A DNA stretch of 64,000 nt from Candidatus Blackburnbacteria bacterium (GTDB lineage Bacteria > Patescibacteriota > Microgenomatia > UBA8517 > UBA10165): assembly GCA_016183565.1 (NCBI GenBank), contig JACPEJ010000001.1:550479-614478 (forward strand), written 5' to 3'. Below are positions 35,047 through 58,409 of the stretch, piece by piece; the stretch's first letter is position 1; each line of letters opens with the position of its first letter. The position numbers and the translations under genes are program-made. Under the pieces are notes generated by a model. That model made no database searches, was not told the DNA's origin, and was given only the letters and a program-made list of their open reading frames with translations.

Positions 35047-35125
35047 CAGAAGATTTTCTAATGTGACGATTATATTATTAAGGGTAAAAAGAGAGTCATA
35101 TTTATGGTATACTAACAGGTGGAAT

Positions 35126-35199
35126 CGGGGAGTAGCTCAGTTGGCTAGAGTGCGCGGTTTGGGACCGTGAGGTCGGAGGTTCGAGTCCTCTCTCCCCGA
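35126..35199 (+). tRNA. tRNA-Pro (TGG)
   Basis: CGGGGAGTAGCTCAGTTGGCTAGAGTGCGCGGTTTGGGACCGTG... has anticodon loop TTTGGGA, T-loop TTCGAGT and acceptor CGGGGAG/CTCCCCG. Confidence 0.85.
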
Positions 35200-36889
35200 C
35201 TGAAAGTGAATCCGCAAAATTGAGCCTGGAGTGGCTCTGCGCGGGAGGGGTCGCGCAGAGCTCTGCAAAGCCACTTTTATACGAGACTGCAAGTTGCCGA
35301 TTAGTCAAAAAGAAGTTCGAGCCGACAGTTTTTCCGAAGAATGCTAATTCTTCGGATGTATTTTTTGTGCGCGCGATTTTTGCGCACGAAAGTGCGCTAC
35401 CAATGAAGTTTTTGAAAGGTTCGAGCCAACTCGAACCATTTTGTTTTATTTTTTAATTTTTCTTCGAAAAATTCGTTCTTTTTATTTTTATAAACATCAG
35501 GTTCAATAATTCCTTCTAAGTAACAATCAAGTAGTTTATTAAGTTTTATATCCAAGTCTTTTAATTTTGTTTGGAGTTTTTCAATGTTCTCATGAATGGA
35601 TACAGTTTCTAATTTTTCATCTTCATCTAACCATTTATACCAATCCTTAGCCCAAGTTTCTGGTAGAGCTACATCATCAATGGCTTTTCTAAATTGGGTT
35701 TCAAGTTCTGGCTCGGAGATGTAGGGCTGATTACAAGGTTTTATTTTCTTAGTACATCTATAGTAGATATACTCAACAGTTCGATTTGTCCCTTTATAGA
35801 ATTTTTTGTGGGATTCAGCAGTGATAGTTGCTCCACACTCACCACATCTCATTAAACCCATAAAAGCAAAATTATACCTTCTTTTTTTACGCCTGTCTTT
35901 AAACTCAAGTTGTTTCTGGACTTGCTGAAAAAGCTCTTTAGAGATTGCTACTTTATGAGTACCTTCGTGATATTCCCCGTTATATTCCATAATGCCAACA
36001 TAAAATCTATTAGCTAAAATTCTGCGGATTTCATTGATATGCAAGGGCTTACTATTTTTTCTTTTAAGGTTGAATTTATGGAGAAGAAAGGCAATATCAG
36101 TAAATGTTTTATTTCCCTCCGCAAACAGTTCAAACGCTTTTTTAATAGCTCTTAATTTCTCTGGTTCAACATCTATCCCTCTAGTTTTTGGATTATTGAT
36201 ATATCCAAAAGGAGCTTTACCAGGATAAACACCATTTCTTAATTTTTGTCTTAGCCCTCTTTTTACATTTTCTGATAAGTTGTCTACATAATATTTTGAT
36301 TGGCCAAAAGCGATATTTAACATGAATTTTCCTTGAGGAGTATTCTCGAACCAAGAAGTTGGAAATTTTAAGTCCTTCAATTTCCCAGTATCTAAAAGGT
36401 AAATTATTTTTCCACCATCAATACTATTTCTTGCCAATCGGTCGGGATGCCACGCAATAATCCCACTTACTTGTTGTTTTTCAATCTTCTTTAATACTTC
36501 AGCAAATTTCTCTCTGCCCGGAACTTTAGCAGTTTTTTCTTCTTCAACAAATTCAGTAATTTCTAAATGTTCTCTTTTAGCATATTCTTTTAGCTCGGCA
36601 ATTTGAGCCTGTATGGACAGAATTTGTTTATCTTTTTCTTCCCTGGACTTTCTACAGTAAGCAATATATTTCATAAAATTATCTCTCTCTTAAAAGTTCT
36701 TTAAGCGAGCTTGCGAGCAGGAATTTCTTTTCTAAGAAATTCCAAAATTTTCGCGTCCTCCCGTTTTTTGTTCTTTTTCACTACGGCAACTTGCAGTCTC
36801 GTATAAAAGTGGCTTTGCAGAGCTCTGCGCGACCCCTCCCGCGCAGAGCCACTCCAGGCTCAATTTTGCGGATTCACTTTCAGTCGACC
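35197..36889. mobile_element. Serine-recombinase module bounded by perfect ~104-bp inverted repeats
   Basis: 35197-35300 is the exact reverse complement of 36786-36889 (cgactgaaagtgaatccgcaaaattgagcctggagtggctctgcgcgggaggggtcgcgcagagctctgcaaagccacttttatacgagactgcaagttgccg). The left repeat starts in the last 3-4 nt of tRNA-Pro. The only gene inside is the recombinase. Confidence 0.7.
35397..36674 (-). CDS. Large serine recombinase (resolvase/invertase catalytic domain + recombinase domain + zinc ribbon)
   Basis: N-terminal MKYIAYCRKSREEKDKQ...IIAWHPDRLARN catalytic domain, a central recombinase domain, and the zinc ribbon CGECGATIT...YYRCTKK. 425 aa. Confidence 0.85.
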   Translation of the reverse strand: MKYIAYCRKSREEKDKQILSIQAQIAELKEYAKREHLEITEFVEEEKTAKVPGREKFAEVLKKIEKQQVSGIIAWHPDRLARNSIDGGKIIYLLDTGKLKDLKFPTSWFENTPQGKFMLNIAFGQSKYYVDNLSENVKRGLRQKLRNGVYPGKAPFGYINNPKTRGIDVEPEKLRAIKKAFELFAEGNKTFTDIAFLLHKFNLKRKNSKPLHINEIRRILANRFYVGIMEYNGEYHEGTHKVAISKELFQQVQKQLEFKDRRKKRRYNFAFMGLMRCGECGATITAESHKKFYKGTNRTVEYIYYRCTKKIKPCNQPYISEPELETQFRKAIDDVALPETWAKDWYKWLDEDEKLETVSIHENIEKLQTKLKDLDIKLNKLLDCYLEGIIEPDVYKNKKNEFFEEKLKNKTKWFELARTFQKLHW

Positions 36890-36975
36890 TTTATCGAAAA
36901 ATCCGAACTCGCTTCAAGTCGAATCGGTAGGCCCGCCAGAGGCGGGCCATCTTATCCGCTCAGCCTTCGGCCCAA
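36886..36975 (+). repeat. Inverted repeat X (left copy); partner at 39046..39140
   Basis: gtcgacctttatcgaaaaatccgaactcgcttcaagtcgaatcggtaggcccgccagaggcgggccatcttatccgctcagccttcggcc is the reverse complement of 39046-39140. It contains the perfect hairpin ggcccgcc-agag-gcgggcc. Confidence 0.7.
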
Positions 36976-37231
36976 ACTCTTAAACTGTCGGCTCGAACGG
37001 GTTGCTTTAGCAACCCCAAAAAACGCGAAAATTTTTTAAAGAACTTTTTCCTTTTTGTTTTTCACTTAAAAGGCGCAACCGGTGGACTCAACAAGAATTG
37101 TGTTCTGTTGTCCGATTGCGCCATTAAAAAACACAATTCATAAAATGTTGAGTCCATGAAAAATATATACTGAAGAATGATAAATTTCAACTGGGATTAT
37201 TTATATCAAAACTAAACAAATAAAAATAACA

Positions 37232-37633
37232 ATGGAACTTAAAACATCTTTGTGCAATACTAAATTTGTGAAGTATAAACTTGTACTAACATTGGCTTTA
37301 ACATTTGGCATTATACCTTCTCTACTTTTGCATAGATTTATTTACGGAATTTCTCATGAAAGTGCTGTATATCTAGAATGCAGATTATTATCAAGCTGTT
37401 CGCATTATTACGAGGGTCTAGCACTAAAATTTGTTTCACTTGTTTATTTAATTTTGTATAGCATAACAGTGCTATACTTTCCTTATAAAATAGCAAGAAA
37501 GGAGAGTACGTCTCTTCTTTCATTGCAAACCATCAAAGAAATGGATCTCAAAAGTATTCTAATCGTAATTTTTGTAAGTTTACTATATCTACCGTTAATC
37601 TTTTTTCTGAGTTCCTCAAATAATCCCTTGTGA
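37232..37633 (+). CDS. Small membrane protein (hypothetical) inside the IR-flanked cassette
   Basis: 133 aa with 3 TM helices. Very AT-rich. Confidence 0.4.
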   Translation: MELKTSLCNTKFVKYKLVLTLALTFGIIPSLLLHRFIYGISHESAVYLECRLLSSCSHYYEGLALKFVSLVYLILYSITVLYFPYKIARKESTSLLSLQTIKEMDLKSILIVIFVSLLYLPLIFFLSSSNNPL

Positions 37634-37705
37634 TGGGTTTTTCCGTCTCTTAATGGCTTTTAACTGAAATTTGACTTTTCCAATAAAATATGTGTAAATT
37701 AAATA

Positions 37706-38044
37706 ATGGCTAATAATAGTGTGAATTCTTCTAGTAGTAAATCCTCGGGCATTAAAACAATAGTCACTATTATAATGTTGTTCTTGCTTTACCCGGTAGG
37801 TGTAATTATGATGTTTGTATGGATGAAGTGGCCAATATGGGTAAAAATTATAACGACCCTTGTAATGTTTTATGTTTTTTTTGTAATTATTGGGGCAGTA
37901 GCGGGGTTAGTAGTTCAGGTAACTGATCCTTATGGAAAAATATTTGAAGCACAGCGTAGGCAATGTACAGCTCAATGCGAAAATGTCCCTAATGCAACTG
38001 CCTGTATGACTGAATGTCTAGAGAAGTTGCGAGCTCCGAAATAA
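37706..38044 (+). CDS. Small membrane protein with Cys-rich C-terminus (hypothetical)
   Basis: 112 aa with 2 TM helices. C-terminal CTAQCENVPNATACMTEC. Confidence 0.4.
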   Translation: MANNSVNSSSSKSSGIKTIVTIIMLFLLYPVGVIMMFVWMKWPIWVKIITTLVMFYVFFVIIGAVAGLVVQVTDPYGKIFEAQRRQCTAQCENVPNATACMTECLEKLRAPK

Positions 38045-38051
38045 ATTTAGA

Positions 38052-38771
38052 TTAAACTACCAAAAAGTATTTTTTAAAAGGTAAGGATATTTGACCTTCT
38101 TCATTTACAAATTTATCCGTAGACAAAGATAAGCATGCAATTTTAGATTTACCATATAGAAATAATAAATGACCACTGTTAGAAGTTGCTGTTAACCAAG
38201 ACTTTTTAATTACTTCAACATTGTGAACTTGCCAAAATAGCTGAAATAAAGTTATTGGGATCATAAGAATTAGTATCATATTGATAACAAATTTAATTGT
38301 TGATAAATCATTAATACCTGTAAATTTATTTAAGAGAAAAGGTCCAAAGAAATATAAGGAGATGCCAATAAGGATCGCGTTTACTAGGTTTTGCAAACGT
38401 CTGTCTACAAAATAATTATTATTAGTCTCTATTAAGAAGGCAGGAACTGGAAATAACTTAAGTTCAAAGCAAAGCTTCTTAGATATAAGTTGGTCATCTG
38501 GGTAAACTTGTCTAATTAGAACTTCAATCGGCCGAAATGGAATAAAGTTATAAAGCCAATCTTTGAATGTAATAATTCCAGATTCTTTAGATTTGAATTT
38601 TTTAATAGCATCCTTGATAGTTTTAGTAGTAAAAAATATTGGAACACCGATAAAAATGACTACAGACATTATTATAAGAACTATTGTTGCTAAATCACGA
38701 AGTTGTTTGTTAGAGGTGGGATTAGAAATTATGATTGCTCCACCAAAAAGCACTATCACAACTAATAACAC
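38052..38771 (-). CDS. Polytopic membrane protein (hypothetical), convergent with the two genes above
   Basis: 239 aa with 5-6 TM helices. Confidence 0.4.
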   Translation of the reverse strand: MLLVVIVLFGGAIIISNPTSNKQLRDLATIVLIIMSVVIFIGVPIFFTTKTIKDAIKKFKSKESGIITFKDWLYNFIPFRPIEVLIRQVYPDDQLISKKLCFELKLFPVPAFLIETNNNYFVDRRLQNLVNAILIGISLYFFGPFLLNKFTGINDLSTIKFVINMILILMIPITLFQLFWQVHNVEVIKKSWLTATSNSGHLLFLYGKSKIACLSLSTDKFVNEEGQISLPFKKYFLVV

Positions 38772-39045
38772 CAGAATAAAAGTTAATAGAAAAGATTTTA
38801 TAGCTTTAGTATAGCAAATCTACTATCTATAATTCTCTAAAAAAAGAGAAGATAAAATCAGTACCGTTCCCCTTAAAATTTCTGCTACAATATCAGGGGG
38901 AGAAAAGTTTTCGCGCACGGGAGGGCGGGGCAAGAAAACATTAAATTGTTTTTGTGTCCTTGTCCGCCATAGGCGGACTATAAATAATAAAAATCGCGCG
39001 CATTTAAAATACTTTCTAAGTATTTTGCAAAAAATACATAGAGCG

Positions 39046-39140
39046 AGGCCGAAGGCTGAGCGGATAAGATGGCCCGCCTCTGGCGGGCCTACCGATTCGA
39101 CTTGAAGCGAGTTCGGATTTTTCGATAAAGGTCGACTAAT
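39046..39140 (-). repeat. Inverted repeat X (right copy)
   Basis: Exact reverse complement of 36886-36975. Ends 8 nt before tRNA-Gly(TCC). Confidence 0.7.
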
Positions 39141-39147
39141 TCAAAGT

Positions 39148-39221
39148 GCGGGTGTAGTTCAATGGTAGAACACCACCCTTCCAAGGTGGATGTGGCAGTT
39201 CGATTCTGCTCACCCGCTCCA
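39148..39221 (+). tRNA. tRNA-Gly (TCC)
   Basis: GCGGGTGTAGTTCAATGGTAGAACACCACCCTTCCAAGGTGG... has anticodon loop CTTCCAA, T-loop TTCGATT and an encoded CCA. Confidence 0.85.
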
Positions 39222-39362: not shown

Positions 39363-40133
39363 CTATTTACTCTTCTCTAATTTAAAAAAGTGTTCTTCTA
39401 TCTTTTCTGCTTTTCTCATAACCATTTCATAAACTAAGATTAATGGTGTAATTGTAAGAAGAATTTGTCCGACCTCATCTTCACGCATGCAAGCAATATC
39501 TTTTTGATAGACCATTTTGCCATCAATTATTCCCCAATATGGCTCGAGAGCAAGGTAATTTGGATGGGTAAACTCAGAGAAAAAATCATAACTTTCCAAA
39601 ATATAATCTTTATTTTTTGATCCTATTGCAGTTAGCTGGGCATTCAGTAATTTGTTTACTTCTCTTACATAATCTGCTGAATGGAAAATCTGTGGTGCCT
39701 TAGAAAAAGTAGTTTTGCCAGACATTGTTTTAGTGTTCTGACCCATGGTTGCAACATATAATATTTCCCAAACTTCTTCATGGTTAGTCATTTTTTTATT
39801 GATCTTACGAACCATATGTGCAAGTGCACCAATTGTTTCTATGCATGAGCGAACCATACTGGCCGCTTCTGGATTTTGAGCATTGATTCCAGAAATTAAT
39901 AAGTTCAATTGATGAATTAATTTTATATGAATAATGTTGGTGTAATGAGAAAAATGGTGATACAAGTCGACACTTTTATTACCCGTAGGTTCAGGAGGTG
40001 GAACTATCTTTCTCCTCTTCTTTAGTTGCTTATAAAGACTATCCAATTCAATAAGTTGTTTTTTAAATGAATGGTATTTTTGCCAAGTTTTTTTCATTTT
40101 ATAACAGCGATCCCTATGGCTAAGATGGATCAC
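39363..40133 (-). CDS. Hypothetical protein, divergent from the SIR2-like gene
   Basis: 256 aa with no recognisable motif. Probable start at the internal MKKTWQKY. Confidence 0.4.
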   Translation of the reverse strand: MIHLSHRDRCYKMKKTWQKYHSFKKQLIELDSLYKQLKKRRKIVPPPEPTGNKSVDLYHHFSHYTNIIHIKLIHQLNLLISGINAQNPEAASMVRSCIETIGALAHMVRKINKKMTNHEEVWEILYVATMGQNTKTMSGKTTFSKAPQIFHSADYVREVNKLLNAQLTAIGSKNKDYILESYDFFSEFTHPNYLALEPYWGIIDGKMVYQKDIACMREDEVGQILLTITPLILVYEMVMRKAEKIEEHFFKLEKSK

Positions 40134-40317
40134 TTGTGGGCCATCAGCTCTCTAAAAGTAAGATACCTTCACCACAGCGATCATTCGGTACTAGTATTTT
40201 AACATTTAACTAGGCCTCTTCATAACTAAAGGCTTAAAAAGCCAACAAAACTATGCGATTGATTAACTCTTTGAGTTATATAACGATTTCTAGCTGAGCA
40301 AGCTATAATATGGACAA

Positions 40318-41316
40318 ATGGAAGATTATAAGAAACATATGAGTAATCAGATACCCAAGGAGAAAAACCTAACTATGGGCGCGCCTCATTTAGTTCTCTT
40401 GGGCGCCGGAGCTAGTAAAGCTGCTTTCCCAAATGGTGACGCAAATGGTAAAGAATTGCCATTAACTAAAGACTTGGCTAGAGTATGCAAGCTTGGAGAG
40501 ATTGACCCCCAAGCAGAAAAGGCAAAGGACTTTGAAAGTTACTACTCCGATTTAACAGACACAAAAATCAAAAGCGCAATGGAATCAAGAATATTCGACT
40601 ATTTTTCTTCTTTAAGGTTGCCTACTGAACCTACAATTTACGATTACTTAGTACTTTCACTTAGAAAAAAGGATGTAATTGCCACATTTAATTGGGACCC
40701 CTTTTTATCTCAAGCGGGGCAAAGAAACCATCAAATAGGCTCTATGCCGCAAGTTTTATATTTACACGGCTCGGTGTTTGTTGGATACTGCATGAAAGAT
40801 AAGACAATGGGTATGGCTGGCTACCCATGTAGTAAATGCAATAAACCCTTTACCAGACCTGATTTACTTTATCCCGTTAAAGAAAAGAACTATCAAAAAG
40901 ACGAAATCATAAAAACAAATTGGGACTATTTACAAAAAGTTCTGAAACGGGCCTACATTTTTACAATTTTTGGTTACAGTGCACCGAAAACTGATGTTGA
41001 AGCTATTGATTTACTCAAGAAAGGCTGGGGCGACAAAGCAAAAAGAAATCTTGAAGAAGTAGAAATCATAAATCGACCCGGGGCCGATAAAGACAAGTTA
41101 AGAGAGGTATGGGACGAATTTATACATACACACCATTATGGAGTCATTGATGATTTTTTTAACTCCTGGCTGATAAAACACCCCAGACGAAGTTGTGACG
41201 CTATGTGGGAAACTTTAATGATGGTAAGGCCATATAAAGAAACGCCACCACCGATAACGAAAAATTTGAATGAGCTACAAAAATGGTTTTCAGATAGACT
41301 TACTCAATACGAATAG
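40318..41316 (+). CDS. SIR2-family (sirtuin-like NAD-binding) protein, defence-type SIR2_2-like
   Basis: LVLLGAGASKAAFPNGD (GAGxS Rossmann motif), ATFNWDPFL (cf. TQNIDGL), LYLHGSVFVGYCMKDK...YPCSKC (zinc CxxC pair), IFTIFGYSAPKTD (GTS-like). Confidence 0.65.
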   Translation: MEDYKKHMSNQIPKEKNLTMGAPHLVLLGAGASKAAFPNGDANGKELPLTKDLARVCKLGEIDPQAEKAKDFESYYSDLTDTKIKSAMESRIFDYFSSLRLPTEPTIYDYLVLSLRKKDVIATFNWDPFLSQAGQRNHQIGSMPQVLYLHGSVFVGYCMKDKTMGMAGYPCSKCNKPFTRPDLLYPVKEKNYQKDEIIKTNWDYLQKVLKRAYIFTIFGYSAPKTDVEAIDLLKKGWGDKAKRNLEEVEIINRPGADKDKLREVWDEFIHTHHYGVIDDFFNSWLIKHPRRSCDAMWETLMMVRPYKETPPPITKNLNELQKWFSDRLTQYE

Positions 41317-58180: not shown

Positions 58181-58254
58181 GCGCCCTTAGCTCAATTGGA
58201 TAGAGTGCGTGGCTTCGGACCATGAGGTTAGAGGTTCGACTCCTCTAGGGCGCG
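58181..58254 (+). tRNA. tRNA-Arg (TCG)
   Basis: GCGCCCTTAGCTCAATTGGATAGAGTGCGTGGCTTCGGACCATG... has anticodon loop CTTCGGA, T-loop TTCGACT and acceptor GCGCCCT/AGGGCGC. Confidence 0.75.
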
Positions 58255-58259
58255 CACAC

Positions 58260-58332
58260 GGGCCGCTAGCTCAATTGGTAGAGCACCGCCCTCTTAAGGC
58301 GGGTGTTCAGGGTTCGAGTCCCTGGCGGCTCA
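58260..58332 (+). tRNA. tRNA-Lys (CTT)
   Basis: GGGCCGCTAGCTCAATTGGTAGAGCACCGCCCTCTTAAGGCGG... has anticodon loop CTCTTAA and T-loop TTCGAGT. It lies 5 nt after tRNA-Arg. Confidence 0.8.
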
Positions 58333-58409
58333 CCGAGTCTGACTCGGCTTTGCCCGAGGAAGACGAGGTAGGCAAGTTTGACTTGCCACTCAAAATTTAT
58401 ATTTTATCG

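What the first reader, a model, noticed from the sequence alone, without database searches (positions are those of the whole stretch)
35197..36889. Serine recombinase gene enclosed by perfect 104-bp inverted repeats abutting tRNA-Pro
35197-35300 and 36786-36889 are exact reverse complements over ~104 nt. Each arm contains its own internal 9-bp hairpin, ctctgcgcg-ggagggg-cgcgcagag. The only gene between them is a 425-aa large serine recombinase with catalytic, recombinase and zinc-ribbon domains.
The left repeat begins inside the last 3-4 nt of tRNA-Pro(TGG). Perfect repeats of this length are not what phiC31-type att sites or short hix/gix invertase sites look like, and IS607-type serine-transposase elements have no terminal inverted repeats.
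The layout suggests either a self-inverting segment or a compact mobile element whose ends are recombinase binding sites. The perfect identity implies recent activity or gene conversion.
Basis: seen in the sequence. Interest (0 to 1): 0.85.

Follow-up and report, generated by a model that had tools for sequence, protein, structure and literature searches.

The report
tRNA-targeting serine-recombinase element with duplicated attP
The perfect inverted repeat belongs to a 3.9-kb mobile element inserted at the end of a tRNA gene, one of a widespread and apparently undescribed family in ultra-small Patescibacteria that carries a second, flipped copy of its own attachment site.

Summary
The repeat is real: 35197-35299 and 36784-36886, 103 nt, 100% identical.

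- **Left arm.** It is the 3' end of the recombinase gene. The 425-aa ORF is cut short by one frameshift, and the gene runs on, antisense, into tRNA-Pro.
- **Second repeat.** A 91-nt perfect pair (36882-36972 / 39047-39137) abuts the first and encloses 2 kb of cargo.
- **Family.** About 60 related Microgenomates loci share the layout: host flank | b' - cargo - b | a' - recombinase - a | tRNA.
- **Internal site.** The b|a' junction is the reverse complement of the a|b' joint that excision would form. It is therefore a second, inverted attP. Integration split the other copy, which produced both repeat pairs.
- **Crossover.** The three junctions share as little as 2 nt, as expected for a serine recombinase.
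- **Mobility.** Recombinases over 90% identical sit at different tRNAs, and conserved tRNA clusters are occupied at different positions. Cargo is hypervariable.
- **Coding across the joint.** Read through a|b', the gene ends in a conserved 14-aa tail. The two arms are therefore one coding unit in the free form.

Evidence for inversion is rare and could be misassembly. I found no published description. The role of the internal attP is unresolved.

The parts
35126..35200 (+). tRNA-Pro(TGG), the integration target. Its 3' end, through the discriminator base, is kept intact.
   Evidence: ARAGORN and Rfam (62.9 bits). In related loci the same position holds tRNAs of 11 amino-acid identities.
35197..35201 (.). 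attR core. 'cgact' is the stretch shared by all three junctions, and the crossover lies within it.
   Evidence: Junction comparison. Across the family the shared stretch is 2-19 nt, most often 4, and only 2 nt ('GC') in L031.
35197..35299 (-). It is the element-side half of attR and codes for the last ~34 residues of the recombinase before the crossover (RQLAVSYKSGFAELCATPPAQSHSRLNFADSLSV). It contains a 10-bp hairpin.
   Evidence: The hairpin covaries across 48 loci: 82% of cells paired against 25-47% in slid controls, with 90 two-sided changes.
35102..36674 (-). Full extent of the large serine recombinase gene. The N-terminal frame runs 36674 down to 35397. The C-terminal 103 codons are in another frame, 35452 down to 35144. 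The reading frame then continues antisense through tRNA-Pro to a stop at 35102.
   Evidence: Pfam, alignment with 510-560-aa homologues, tblastn of P0003, translation.
35449..35454 (.). T6/A6 homopolymer where the reading frame shifts by +1. This is either a recent inactivating mutation or a homopolymer sequencing error. A deletion of about 7 aa relative to homologues lies next to it.
36692..36756 (.). u' motifs (36692-36704 and 36744-36756) between arm a' and the start codon. They are inverted copies of u at 37023-37048 on the other side of the internal site.
   Evidence: the repeat finder pairs I6 and I7. An equivalent 20-27-nt pair occurs in many loci.
36784..36886 (+). It is half of the internal, inverted attP copy, 110 nt upstream of the recombinase start codon.
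   Evidence: An equivalent arm lies roughly 35-420 nt (usually about 35-210 nt) upstream of the start codon in 63 of 81 loci.
36784..36930 (+). Orphan 3' gene fragment carried by the internal attP copy. It is arm a plus the first 44 nt of arm b, read in frame: RQLAVSY...SLSV|DLYRKIRTRFKSNR followed by a stop. This is the family's conserved native C-terminal tail.
   Evidence: Translation. The tail is conserved with synonymous codon changes in 37 distinct loci.
36882..36886 (.). Core of the internal attP copy ('agtcg'). This is the 5-nt overlap between the A pair and the B pair.
36882..36972 (.). Proximal b arm, the other half of the internal attP. It carries the AATCCGAAC motif 13-22 nt from the core and a GC-rich hairpin.
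36982..36998 (+). S2', a 17-nt exact inverted copy of gene sequence 35315-35331 (which codes KTVGSN). It lies just inside the proximal b arm. Its role is unknown.
   Evidence: The same motif follows b' in L103-L105.
36973..39046 (.). Cargo segment with three ORFs of unknown function and no Pfam match above threshold: 37232-37633 (+), 37706-38044 (+) and 38052-38771 (-).
   Evidence: Cargo in related elements is 0.6-5 kb and hypervariable.
38989..39024 (.). s', an inverted copy (36 nt, 81%) of gene sequence 35346-35381 (the AKIAR.KN region). It lies just inside the distal b arm.
   Evidence: the repeat finder pair I3. A 21-27-nt equivalent lies directly next to the distal b arm in most of the 22 loci examined.
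39047..39137 (.). Distal b' arm, the element-side half of attL and the far end of the element.
39133..39137 (.). attL core ('cgact').
39148..39221 (+). tRNA-Gly(TCC), host DNA 10 nt beyond the element. The reconstructed empty site is tRNA-Pro...ccccgact|aattcaaagt followed by tRNA-Gly.
   Evidence: In L085-L093 tRNA-Pro(tgg) and tRNA-Gly(tcc) are adjacent, 85 nt apart and unoccupied, and the element sits after tRNA-Gly instead.

Best explanation
Window 35197-39137 is an integrated copy of a small (2.4 to over 7 kb) site-specific integrative element. It is driven by a large serine recombinase (LSR).

**Layout.** In gene-sense orientation every family member reads: host flank Y | b' - s' - cargo - u - b | a' - u' - recombinase gene - s - a | antisense tRNA 3' end. 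The element's attachment site, attP (a|b'), lies across the 3' end of the recombinase gene. Arm a encodes the last ~35 residues before the crossover. Arm b' encodes a conserved ~14-residue tail and the stop codon.

**Origin of the repeats.** The element carries two copies of this ~190-bp attP region in inverted orientation. One lies at the gene's 3' end. The other lies between the cargo and the gene's 5' end. Integration cuts the first copy at a 2-bp crossover. That crossover falls at the last two base pairs of the tRNA acceptor stem. The cut separates a (now attR, next to the tRNA) from b' (now attL, at the far end). Each half remains an inverted repeat of the matching half of the uncut internal copy. 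This produces the two abutting perfect repeat pairs.

**Shown here:**
- the architecture and its conservation across the family;
- that the internal site is the reverse complement of the predicted excision joint;
- the 2-nt minimum of shared core;
- insertion at many different tRNAs;
- the coding constraint on b'.

**Inferred:**
- that the element excises as a circle;
- that the recombinase itself catalyses integration at tRNA 3' ends;
- that integration replaces the native tail with tRNA-antisense residues.

**Unresolved:** what the internal attP copy does. My preferred reading has two parts, both held at low confidence. It may act as an operator, because it sits between the recombinase gene and a cargo that is mostly transcribed divergently. 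It may also serve as a spare complete 3' end to which rare inversion of the recombinase segment can reconnect the gene.

The window copy is probably inactive or freshly damaged, because its gene carries one frameshift.
For: **Repeats in the window.**
- Both pairs are perfect and overlap by 5 nt.

**Gene structure.**
- Homologues are 500-570 aa. Their C-termini match the window's left arm and then continue as antisense tRNA.

**Conserved architecture.**
- 63 of 81 loci have the A pair. That count includes short and degraded matches; 53 pairs are 80 nt or longer. Among pairs of at least 80 nt the median is 105 nt at 97.9% identity.
- 32 loci have a B pair within 6 kb. Among pairs of at least 70 nt the median is 107 nt at 98.2%.
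- In nearly every locus with enough upstream sequence, a' is followed by a b-type arm.
- Element-by-element junction tables show that attR is a|T', the internal site is the reverse complement of a|b', and attL is Y|b'. Y is not conserved.
- The core shared by the three junctions is 2-19 nt, most often 4. It is exactly 2 nt in L031.

**Mobility.**
- 62 of 81 loci have an antisense tRNA directly after the gene. These tRNAs cover 11 amino-acid identities.
- Recombinases 90-92% identical sit at different tRNAs: Glu/Val/Lys, Leu/Arg, Val/Glu and Tyr/Leu.
- Several genomes carry 2-3 copies.
- In the cluster Leu(taa)-Pro(tgg)-Gly(tcc), the site after Pro is occupied in the window and L011. In L085-L093 the site after Gly is occupied instead. 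In the pair Arg(tcg)-Lys(ctt), the element sits between the two tRNAs in L031 and after Lys in L070. No recombinase accompanies that pair in the window.

**Cargo.**
- It is hypervariable: MFS transporters, SAM methyltransferases, a HindIII restriction-modification pair, LexA-like proteins, deformylase and sortase. No replication, capsid or conjugation genes were found.

**Coding across the joint.**
- Reading the gene through a|b' gives (L/V/I)(Y/F)x(K/Q)(I/V)RTxF(K/Q/R), then a stop, in 37 distinct loci.
- Synonymous codon families are used, and codon position 2 is the most conserved.
- The window's internal copy encodes DLYRKIRTRFKSNR followed by a stop.

**Protein family.**
- All three LSR domains are present. 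The nearest solved structure is the SPbeta integrase SprA/YokA.
Against: - No excised circle, and no empty site from the same species, was observed. The exact-protein look-ups for the window's genes returned nothing.
- The metagenome scan for a joined Pro-Gly site hit only unrelated high-GC bacteria.
- No recombination directionality factor is evident. The smallest elements have only about 600 nt of cargo. Excision would therefore have to be RDF-independent.
- A canonical LSR attP needs about 50 bp and only one copy. The model does not explain why a second, inverted, roughly 190-bp copy is kept nearly identical.
- The host side of attB (Y) shows no conservation. That is unusual for LSR attB sites.
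- A few loci, such as L040, end at a sequence that is not a recognisable tRNA.
- The T-loop-like motif in b' may be conserved for coding reasons rather than for DNA recognition. GTT AGA ACC variants keep Val-Arg-Thr but break TTCGAAC.
Confidence: 0.78

Rival explanations
1. The recombinase cassette is mainly a self-inverting switch. The recombinase, or homologous recombination, flips 35300-36783 between arms a and a'. The flip would exchange the gene's C-terminus between a tRNA-antisense tail and the conserved native tail stored in the internal copy. It would also turn the gene from convergent with the tRNA to co-directional with it. Mobility would be secondary or ancestral.
For: - Perfect inverted repeats flank exactly the recombinase gene.
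- The internal copy carries a complete, conserved 3' gene end with its stop codon.
- L069 shows tRNA-Trp(+) | a' | 5' end of the gene.
- Five of 120 homologous proteins end with the b'-encoded tail. Their contigs read gene, a|b', then the flank of the proximal b arm.
- Many contigs break exactly at the arms.
Against: - The gene points into the tRNA in every one of the roughly 60 loci where a tRNA is seen, apart from L069. s' is always next to the distal b arm. Both segments therefore have an essentially fixed orientation.
- Ten assemblies of one population (L085-L094) all share one orientation.
- The exceptional contigs are short, 1.7-6.9 kb. They are exactly what a wrong assembler turn at a 100-nt repeat would produce.
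- Inversion alone does not explain the second repeat pair, the variable cargo, or the many tRNA targets.
Confidence: 0.15
2. Two independent terminal-inverted-repeat elements are inserted in tandem at the tRNA. One would be an IS-like recombinase element bounded by a/a'. The other would be a non-autonomous cargo element bounded by b/b', mobilised in trans.
For: - Each unique segment is bounded by its own near-perfect inverted repeat.
- Nearly identical b arms enclose unrelated cargo in L020, L023, L031, L041 and L068.
Against: - The b arm accompanies a' in nearly every locus with enough sequence. No solo recombinase segment was seen.
- a and b' form one continuous reading frame that ends in a conserved tail. 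They are therefore adjacent parts of one gene in the free form, not the ends of different elements.
- The short motifs s/s' and u/u' link the two segments.
Confidence: 0.05
3. The repeat is an assembly artefact or a chance or dispersed repeat with no link to the recombinase.
For: The source is a metagenome-assembled genome, and some related contigs show obvious artefacts. L074, for example, has a 448-nt perfect terminal hairpin.
Against: - The same architecture occurs in more than 60 independent assemblies from many studies and assemblers.
- Only two copies occur in the window, against none in shuffles.
- The arms are locus-specific and are coding sequence of the adjacent gene.
Confidence: 0.01

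Closest known systems
Serine-integrase (LSR) integrative elements: phiC31, Bxb1, A118, SPbeta SprA, and the CcrAB recombinases of SCCmec
   Same: - Same three-domain recombinase: Resolvase, Recombinase and zinc ribbon.
- The nearest solved structure is SprA/YokA. The nearest NCBIfam models are CcrB and XisF, both far below their cut-offs.
- Hybrid junctions flank the insert, and they share as little as a 2-nt core.
   Different: - The target is the 3' end of tRNA genes of many identities. Mageeney et al. 2020 (PMC7192596) state that S-Int use of tRNA genes had not been reported, and they found only 14 of 297 candidates.
- attP lies inside the recombinase's own coding sequence.
- A second, inverted attP copy sits inside the element.
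- No RDF, phage or conjugation genes were found.
- The host-side half of attB is not conserved.
LSR transposons Tn4451/Tn4453 (TnpX) and Tn5397 (TndX)
   Same: From my own knowledge: these are compact elements moved by a large serine recombinase alone. They pass through a circular intermediate with a 2-bp crossover and need no RDF. That is the behaviour the smallest members of this family would need.
   Different: - Those transposons have short imperfect terminal repeats and no internal copy of the joint. They do not target tRNA genes.
- Here the two ends (b' and a) are not inverted repeats of each other.
Tycheposons and other small cargo-carrying tRNA islands of streamlined genomes (Hackl et al., bioRxiv 10.1101/2020.12.28.424599)
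   Same: Small elements at tRNA genes in reduced genomes. They carry highly variable accessory cargo next to a site-specific recombinase.
   Different: - 910 of 937 of those elements use tyrosine recombinases, and many encode replication genes.
- This family is purely LSR-based and shows no replication genes.
- It has the double inverted-repeat architecture.
Yeast 2-micron circle (Flp/FRT in two inverted repeats) and plasmids with a recombinase plus long inverted repeats, such as pSM19035 with beta recombinase
   Same: From my own knowledge: these are circles divided into two unique segments by a pair of inverted repeats that contain the recombinase's target site. That is what the inferred free form of this element looks like.
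   Different: - Those are replicating plasmids in which inversion is frequent and serves copy-number control or resolution.
- Here no replicon was found, the free circle was not observed, and orientation is nearly fixed.
DNA invertase switches (Hin/Gin/Cin, the R64 shufflon) that swap protein C-termini
   Same: An inverted repeat lies inside coding sequence, so inversion would exchange the C-terminal end of a protein.
   Different: - Those systems use short (about 26-bp) sites and small invertases, or a tyrosine recombinase in the shufflon. They switch other genes, and both orientations are common.
- Here the recombinase would switch its own tail, and flipped states are rare or artefactual.

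Membership tests
Large serine recombinases (serine integrases) | N-terminal resolvase catalytic domain, followed by the recombinase domain and the zinc beta-ribbon domain | tested here: met
   PF00239 (1.1e-22), PF07508 (1.4e-13) and PF13408 (1.3e-10), all above their curated cut-offs. The SprA/YokA structure is matched over residues 4-409.
Large serine recombinases (serine integrases) | Recombination needs identity only at a central dinucleotide, so the junctions share a very short core | tested here: met
   The shared core is 2-19 nt across 30 elements, most often 4, and exactly 2 nt ('GC') in L031.
Large serine recombinases (serine integrases) | Catalyses attP x attB recombination, with directionality set by the coiled-coil motif and an RDF | not testable with these tools
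No conserved small accessory gene was found in the cargo.
Site-specific integrative element (genomic island) | The insert is bounded by attL and attR, which are hybrids of an element site and a host site | tested here: met
   attR is a|tRNA and attL is Y|b'. The internal site supplies the a|b' sequence, from which both hybrids can be derived.
Site-specific integrative element (genomic island) | Presence/absence polymorphism: empty sites and varying occupancy | tested here: inconclusive
   Different tRNAs of the same conserved clusters are occupied in different genera, and near-identical recombinases sit at different tRNAs. No empty site was found within the same species.
Site-specific integrative element (genomic island) | An excised circular form exists | tested here: inconclusive
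   Five short contigs read the gene into a|b'. They fit a flipped isomer or a misassembly equally well. The coding constraint on the b'-encoded tail argues that the a|b' joint is expressed in some state.
Invertible DNA segment (invertase switch) | Inverted-repeat recombination sites flank the segment | tested here: met
   The A pair is 103 nt at 100% and the B pair is 91 nt at 100%.
Invertible DNA segment (invertase switch) | Both orientations occur in populations | tested here: inconclusive
   One of about 60 loci is flipped (L069) and 5 of 120 proteins carry the alternative tail. Ten assemblies of one population share one orientation. Reads were not available.
IS or transposon with terminal inverted repeats (including LSR transposons and IS607) | The two termini of the mobile unit are inverted repeats of each other | tested here: not met
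   The termini are b' and a, which are unrelated in sequence apart from short motifs. Each terminus pairs with an internal arm instead.
Prophage or conjugative/mobilisable element | Capsid, terminase, relaxase or type IV secretion genes | tested here: not met
   None appears among the 25 most frequent Pfam families for the 62 cargo proteins; 44 families matched in all. No close relatives were found in the viral contig collection; the best hit was 20% identical.
Tycheposon-like tRNA islands | A tyrosine recombinase, and a partial tRNA duplication at the far end | tested here: not met
   The recombinase is an LSR. The far junction shares only 2-19 nt with the tRNA end.

The most novel reading that the evidence does not exclude
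The element may use its duplicated, inverted attP as a built-in directionality switch in place of an RDF.

- In the resting integrated state the recombinase gene is convergent with the tRNA. Its conserved 14-residue tail is replaced by tRNA-antisense residues.
- Flipping the recombinase segment between a and a' would reconnect the gene to the stored native 3' end. It would also place the gene downstream of the tRNA promoter. This would produce the native enzyme that then excises or moves the element.
- The enzyme would find its targets through the near-universal T-loop/acceptor end of tRNA genes. Any tRNA gene would then be a potential landing site.
Probability: 0.22. Interest if true: 0.85.

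Novelty: new variant of a known kind. Interest (0 to 1): 0.72.

Why it matters
- **Mobile DNA in ultra-small bacteria.** Patescibacteria (CPR) have tiny genomes, and their mobile elements are barely described. This family appears to be a common way for Microgenomates to shuttle single accessory genes or small operons. Cargo includes restriction-modification systems, transporters and methyltransferases. The scan found 137 related loci among species-representative genomes, and some genomes carry several copies.
- **Recombinase mechanism.** This is a whole clade of large serine recombinases dedicated to tRNA 3' ends. Such targeting was previously doubted for this enzyme class (PMC7192596). attP lies inside the enzyme's own coding sequence and is duplicated in inverted orientation. 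Neither feature is part of the textbook serine-integrase model.
- **Genome engineering.** The dataset gives dozens of natural attP, attB, attL and attR sets for compact (~520 aa) integrases. These may not need an RDF, and they recognise a sequence present in every genome.
- **Annotation and assembly.** The 100-nt repeat pairs break assemblies, and the gene's read-through into tRNA inflates ORF calls. Recognising the architecture would improve annotation of these metagenome-assembled genomes.

Tried and rejected
1. **Known RNA families.** Rfam found only tRNAs in the window. It found nothing in the loci whose target is not a recognisable tRNA.
2. **Dispersed repeat.** Rejected. Only two copies of the arm occur in the window.
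3. **A second frameshift near 35373.** I first read one by eye. tblastn showed the C-terminal 103 codons are in a single frame, so there is only one frameshift.
4. **Arms a and b as diverged copies of one sequence.** Alignment shows only the short s motif and GC-rich hairpins in common. RNAalifold found no consensus structure for the b arms.
5. **Free or viral forms.** The viral contig collection holds no close relatives; the best match is 20% identical.
6. **Same-species empty site.**
   - Exact-protein look-ups for the recombinase and both flanking genes returned nothing.
   - The single metagenome scan, for tRNA-Pro end + 1-30 nt + tRNA-Gly start, hit only unrelated high-GC bacteria. It shows merely that Pro-Gly tandems are common.
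7. **Orientation polymorphism within one population.** Ten contigs carrying protein P0048 all have the same orientation.
8. **A universal small accessory gene (RDF candidate).** Small ORFs near the internal site are XRE-type HTH proteins in 4 loci and a membrane peptide in 3. Otherwise they are unrelated.
9. **Promoter and terminator scans.** They gave nothing above the shuffle background.
10. **T-loop mimicry in b'.**
   - TCGAAC lies 16 nt from the core in b' and 13 nt in the tRNA.
   - I downgraded this from the main reason for b' conservation to a possibility. The codon alignment showed protein-level constraint.
11. **Literature.** Five full-text searches found no description of this family.
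Full report
**1. The observation**

The repeat is present. Arms 35197-35299 and 36784-36886 are 103 nt long and 100% complementary. With a 2-nt indel the similarity extends to 118 nt at 97.5%. A 100-nt probe from the arm matches only these two places in the window, and none in 100 shuffles.

The arms are GC-rich islands (0.55) in DNA of about 0.30-0.35 GC. Each holds a 10-bp hairpin with an 8-nt loop.

tRNA-Pro(TGG) lies at 35126-35200 and overlaps the left arm by 4 nt. The ORF 35397-36674 (- strand, 425 aa) has the three LSR domains. The source is a Candidatus Blackburnbacteria metagenome-assembled genome on a 686-kb contig.

**2. The left arm is the end of the gene**

All close homologues are 500-570 aa. 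They cover 93-100% of the query and then continue. Their C-termini read ...KTVGSNFFLTNRQLAVSYKKGFAELCAPPPAQSQSRLNFADSLSVG. After that come residues typical of a translated antisense tRNA.

The window encodes the same sequence in another frame, from 35452 down to 35144, without a stop. It runs straight through the left arm into antisense tRNA-Pro. The frames are linked by a +1 shift in a T6/A6 run (35449-35454), beside a deletion of about 7 aa. The 425-aa ORF is thus a truncation caused by mutation or a homopolymer error. The left arm codes for the last ~34 residues before the tRNA junction.

**3. A second repeat pair and a conserved architecture**

A 91-nt perfect inverted repeat (36882-36972 / 39047-39137) starts inside the last 5 nt of the right arm. 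It ends 10 nt before tRNA-Gly(TCC).

A scan of species-representative genomes returned 80 loci, nearly all Microgenomates/Patescibacteria. Self-comparison gave these counts:
- An A pair, flanking the recombinase, occurs in 63 of 81 loci. That count includes short and degraded matches; 53 pairs are 80 nt or longer. Among pairs of at least 80 nt the median is 105 nt at 97.9% identity.
- A B pair whose proximal arm abuts the upstream A arm occurs in 32 loci. Among pairs of at least 70 nt the median is 107 nt at 98.2%.
- Where the distal partner is out of range, a b-type arm still follows a'.

Elements span 2.4-6.8 kb, and more where the distal arm lies beyond the 6 kb fetched.

Short extra inverted motifs recur. 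s/s' links the gene's AKIARAKN region to the inner side of the distal b arm. u/u' flanks the internal junction. The window has all of them.

**4. What the three junctions mean**

In gene-sense orientation each locus reads Y | b' ... b | a' ... a | T'. T' is the antisense tRNA end and Y is unconserved host DNA. The reverse complement of the internal junction b|a' is a|b'. That is exactly the joint that recombination between Y|b' and a|T' would create. The internal site is therefore a second, inverted copy of the element's attP. The A and B pairs are the two halves of one ~190-bp inverted repeat, and integration split one copy of it.

The stretch common to all three junctions is 2-19 nt, most often 4. 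In L031 it is exactly 2 nt. This matches the dinucleotide crossover of serine recombinases. The crossover falls at the last two base pairs of the acceptor stem. Arm a restores the discriminator base and, in many loci, supplies CCA.

In the window the reconstructed empty site is tRNA-Pro...ccccgact|aattcaaagt, followed by tRNA-Gly.

**5. Evidence for mobility**

- An antisense tRNA directly follows the gene in 62 of 81 loci. These are Pro, Lys, Glu, Leu, Val, Gln, Ile, Arg, Trp, Tyr and Ser.
- Recombinases 90-92% identical sit at different tRNAs: L036 Glu / L042 Val / L047 Lys, L023 Leu / L031 Arg, and L049 Val / L050 Glu.
- Several genomes hold 2-3 copies.
- In the conserved cluster Leu(taa)-Pro(tgg)-Gly(tcc), the element follows Pro in the window and L011. 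In L085-L093 it follows Gly, and Pro and Gly are adjacent there.
- In the pair Arg(tcg)-Lys(ctt), the element lies between the two tRNAs in L031 and after Lys in L070. No recombinase accompanies that pair in the window.
- Most genes are intact. The window, L009, L051, L071 and L073 are broken.

I found no same-species empty site and no unambiguous circle.

**6. Cargo**

The segment between the b arms is 0.6-5 kb and hypervariable. Of 95 ORFs nearly all are singletons. Matches include:
- MFS and EamA transporters;
- SAM methyltransferases;
- a HindIII restriction enzyme with its methylase;
- LexA-like S24 peptidases;
- deformylase, sortase, aldo-keto reductase and endonuclease VII.

No replication, capsid or conjugation genes appear among the families listed. 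About two thirds of the cargo ORFs of 100 aa or more are transcribed away from the internal junction. Nearly identical b arms enclose unrelated cargo.

The window's three cargo ORFs have no significant family match.

**7. The arms form one coding unit in the joined state**

Read through a|b', the gene gives a conserved tail and then a stop: (L/V/I)(Y/F)x(K/Q)(I/V)RTxF(K/Q/R). In most loci it is about 11-16 codons long.

The codon alignment of 37 distinct loci uses synonymous codon families:
- Leu: CTT, TTA, CTA, TTG, CTG;
- Arg: CGA, AGA, CGT, CGG;
- Thr: ACN.

Position 2 is the most conserved, with mean entropy 0.54 against 0.87 (position 1) and 0.99 (position 3). This is protein-level constraint, so the a|b' joint must be translated in some state of the element.

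In the integrated state the tail is replaced by variable tRNA-antisense residues. The window's internal copy carries the orphan fragment ...SLSV|DLYRKIRTRFKSNR with its stop, at 36784-36930.

**8. The hairpin**

The 10-bp stem in arm a is kept by compensatory changes across 48 loci. 82% of cells are paired, against 25-47% when partners are slid. There are 90 two-sided changes against 10-24, and no shuffle of 500 reaches the observed score. It is a selected structure inside coding sequence. Its role is not established. It may be a terminator or insulator between the tRNA and the convergent gene, or a recombination accessory.

**9. Inversion**

L069 shows tRNA-Trp(+) | a' | gene start. Five of 120 homologues end with the b'-encoded tail. 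Their contigs (L102-L106, 1.7-4.3 kb) start at the a' arm. They read gene, a|b', then the flank of the proximal b arm.

This is what flipping the recombinase segment would give. It is also what a wrong assembler turn at a 100-nt repeat would give. Everywhere else both segments have a fixed orientation. Inversion is therefore possible but rare, and it is unproven.

**10. Target recognition**

The consensus puts TCGAAC 13 nt from the core in the tRNA and 16 nt from the core in b'. This resembles the offset of zinc-ribbon-domain motifs between LSR attB and attP half-sites. That comparison rests on my own knowledge of the LI integrase work.

Because b' is coding, and some clades keep V-R-T while breaking the DNA motif, I treat the T-loop mimicry as a lead only.

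**11. Comparison with known systems, and novelty**

The enzyme is an LSR, and the element behaves like a minimal serine-integrase island. It differs from every described kind I could find in four respects:
- systematic tRNA targeting, which Mageeney et al. 2020 (PMC7192596) called unreported for S-Ints;
- attP embedded in the recombinase's coding sequence, with a state-dependent C-terminus;
- a second, inverted attP copy inside the element;
- no RDF and no transfer genes.

Tycheposons are the nearest ecological analogue, but they are tyrosine-recombinase elements. Five literature searches found no description of this family.

I rate it a new variant of a known kind. The window copy itself is a slightly damaged member.

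Noticed in passing
window 35333-35356 and 35418-35437 (+ strand): Two terminator-like hairpins, each followed by a T-run, lie on the tRNA-sense strand inside the recombinase's 3' coding region (residues SEELAFFG and GSSWLEP). They could stop read-through from tRNA-Pro into the convergent gene.
   Followed up: no
window 58181-58334: A tRNA-Arg(TCG)-tRNA-Lys(CTT) tandem, 4 nt apart. The same pair is occupied by family members in other genomes: between the two tRNAs in L031 and after Lys in L070. tblastn found no recombinase homologue here, so this may be an empty counterpart. I did not read the sequence downstream of 58334.
   Followed up: partly
window 39363-41316: The genes just beyond tRNA-Gly give weak matches to DUF5677 (E = 0.04) and to the AbiH abortive-infection family (E = 0.011). 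This may be a small defence or accessory islet next to the element.
   Followed up: no
L049 2771-2937 and 4048-4177; L029 2631-2734: Extra, more diverged copies of a|b'-like and b'-like arms lie upstream of the element. They look like remnants of earlier insertions at the same tRNA (tandem accretion).
   Followed up: partly
L040 7496-7620; L037 and L038 contig ends: Here arm a is followed by sequence that neither ARAGORN nor Rfam recognises as a tRNA. L040 and L037 share 'ggtggaacc'. Possible explanations are off-target integration, a rearranged site, or an unusual or intron-containing tRNA.
   Followed up: partly
L074 1-448 versus 715-1162: A 448-nt perfect inverted duplication at a contig end overlaps the recombinase start. 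It is most likely an assembly hairpin artefact.
   Followed up: no
L001, L003, L005, L011 and other 'binchicken' records: Many loci are labelled 'uncultured Gammaproteobacteria' or 'Pseudomonadales'. Their tRNA synteny and recombinases are those of Microgenomates, so the record taxonomy appears to be wrong.
   Followed up: no
L085-L087 1-4469: This family member carries cargo of more than 7 kb that looks like a defence system: an N6_N4 DNA methylase, an AAA/SMC-like ATPase and a ResIII helicase.
   Followed up: no
L005 5333-5638, L020 1734-1955, L026 5377-5601, L075 5345-5566: Small XRE-type HTH proteins are encoded in the cargo of four elements, next to the internal attP copy in three of them (L005, L026, L075). 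They could be element regulators or restriction-modification controller proteins. They are not universal in the family.
   Followed up: partly
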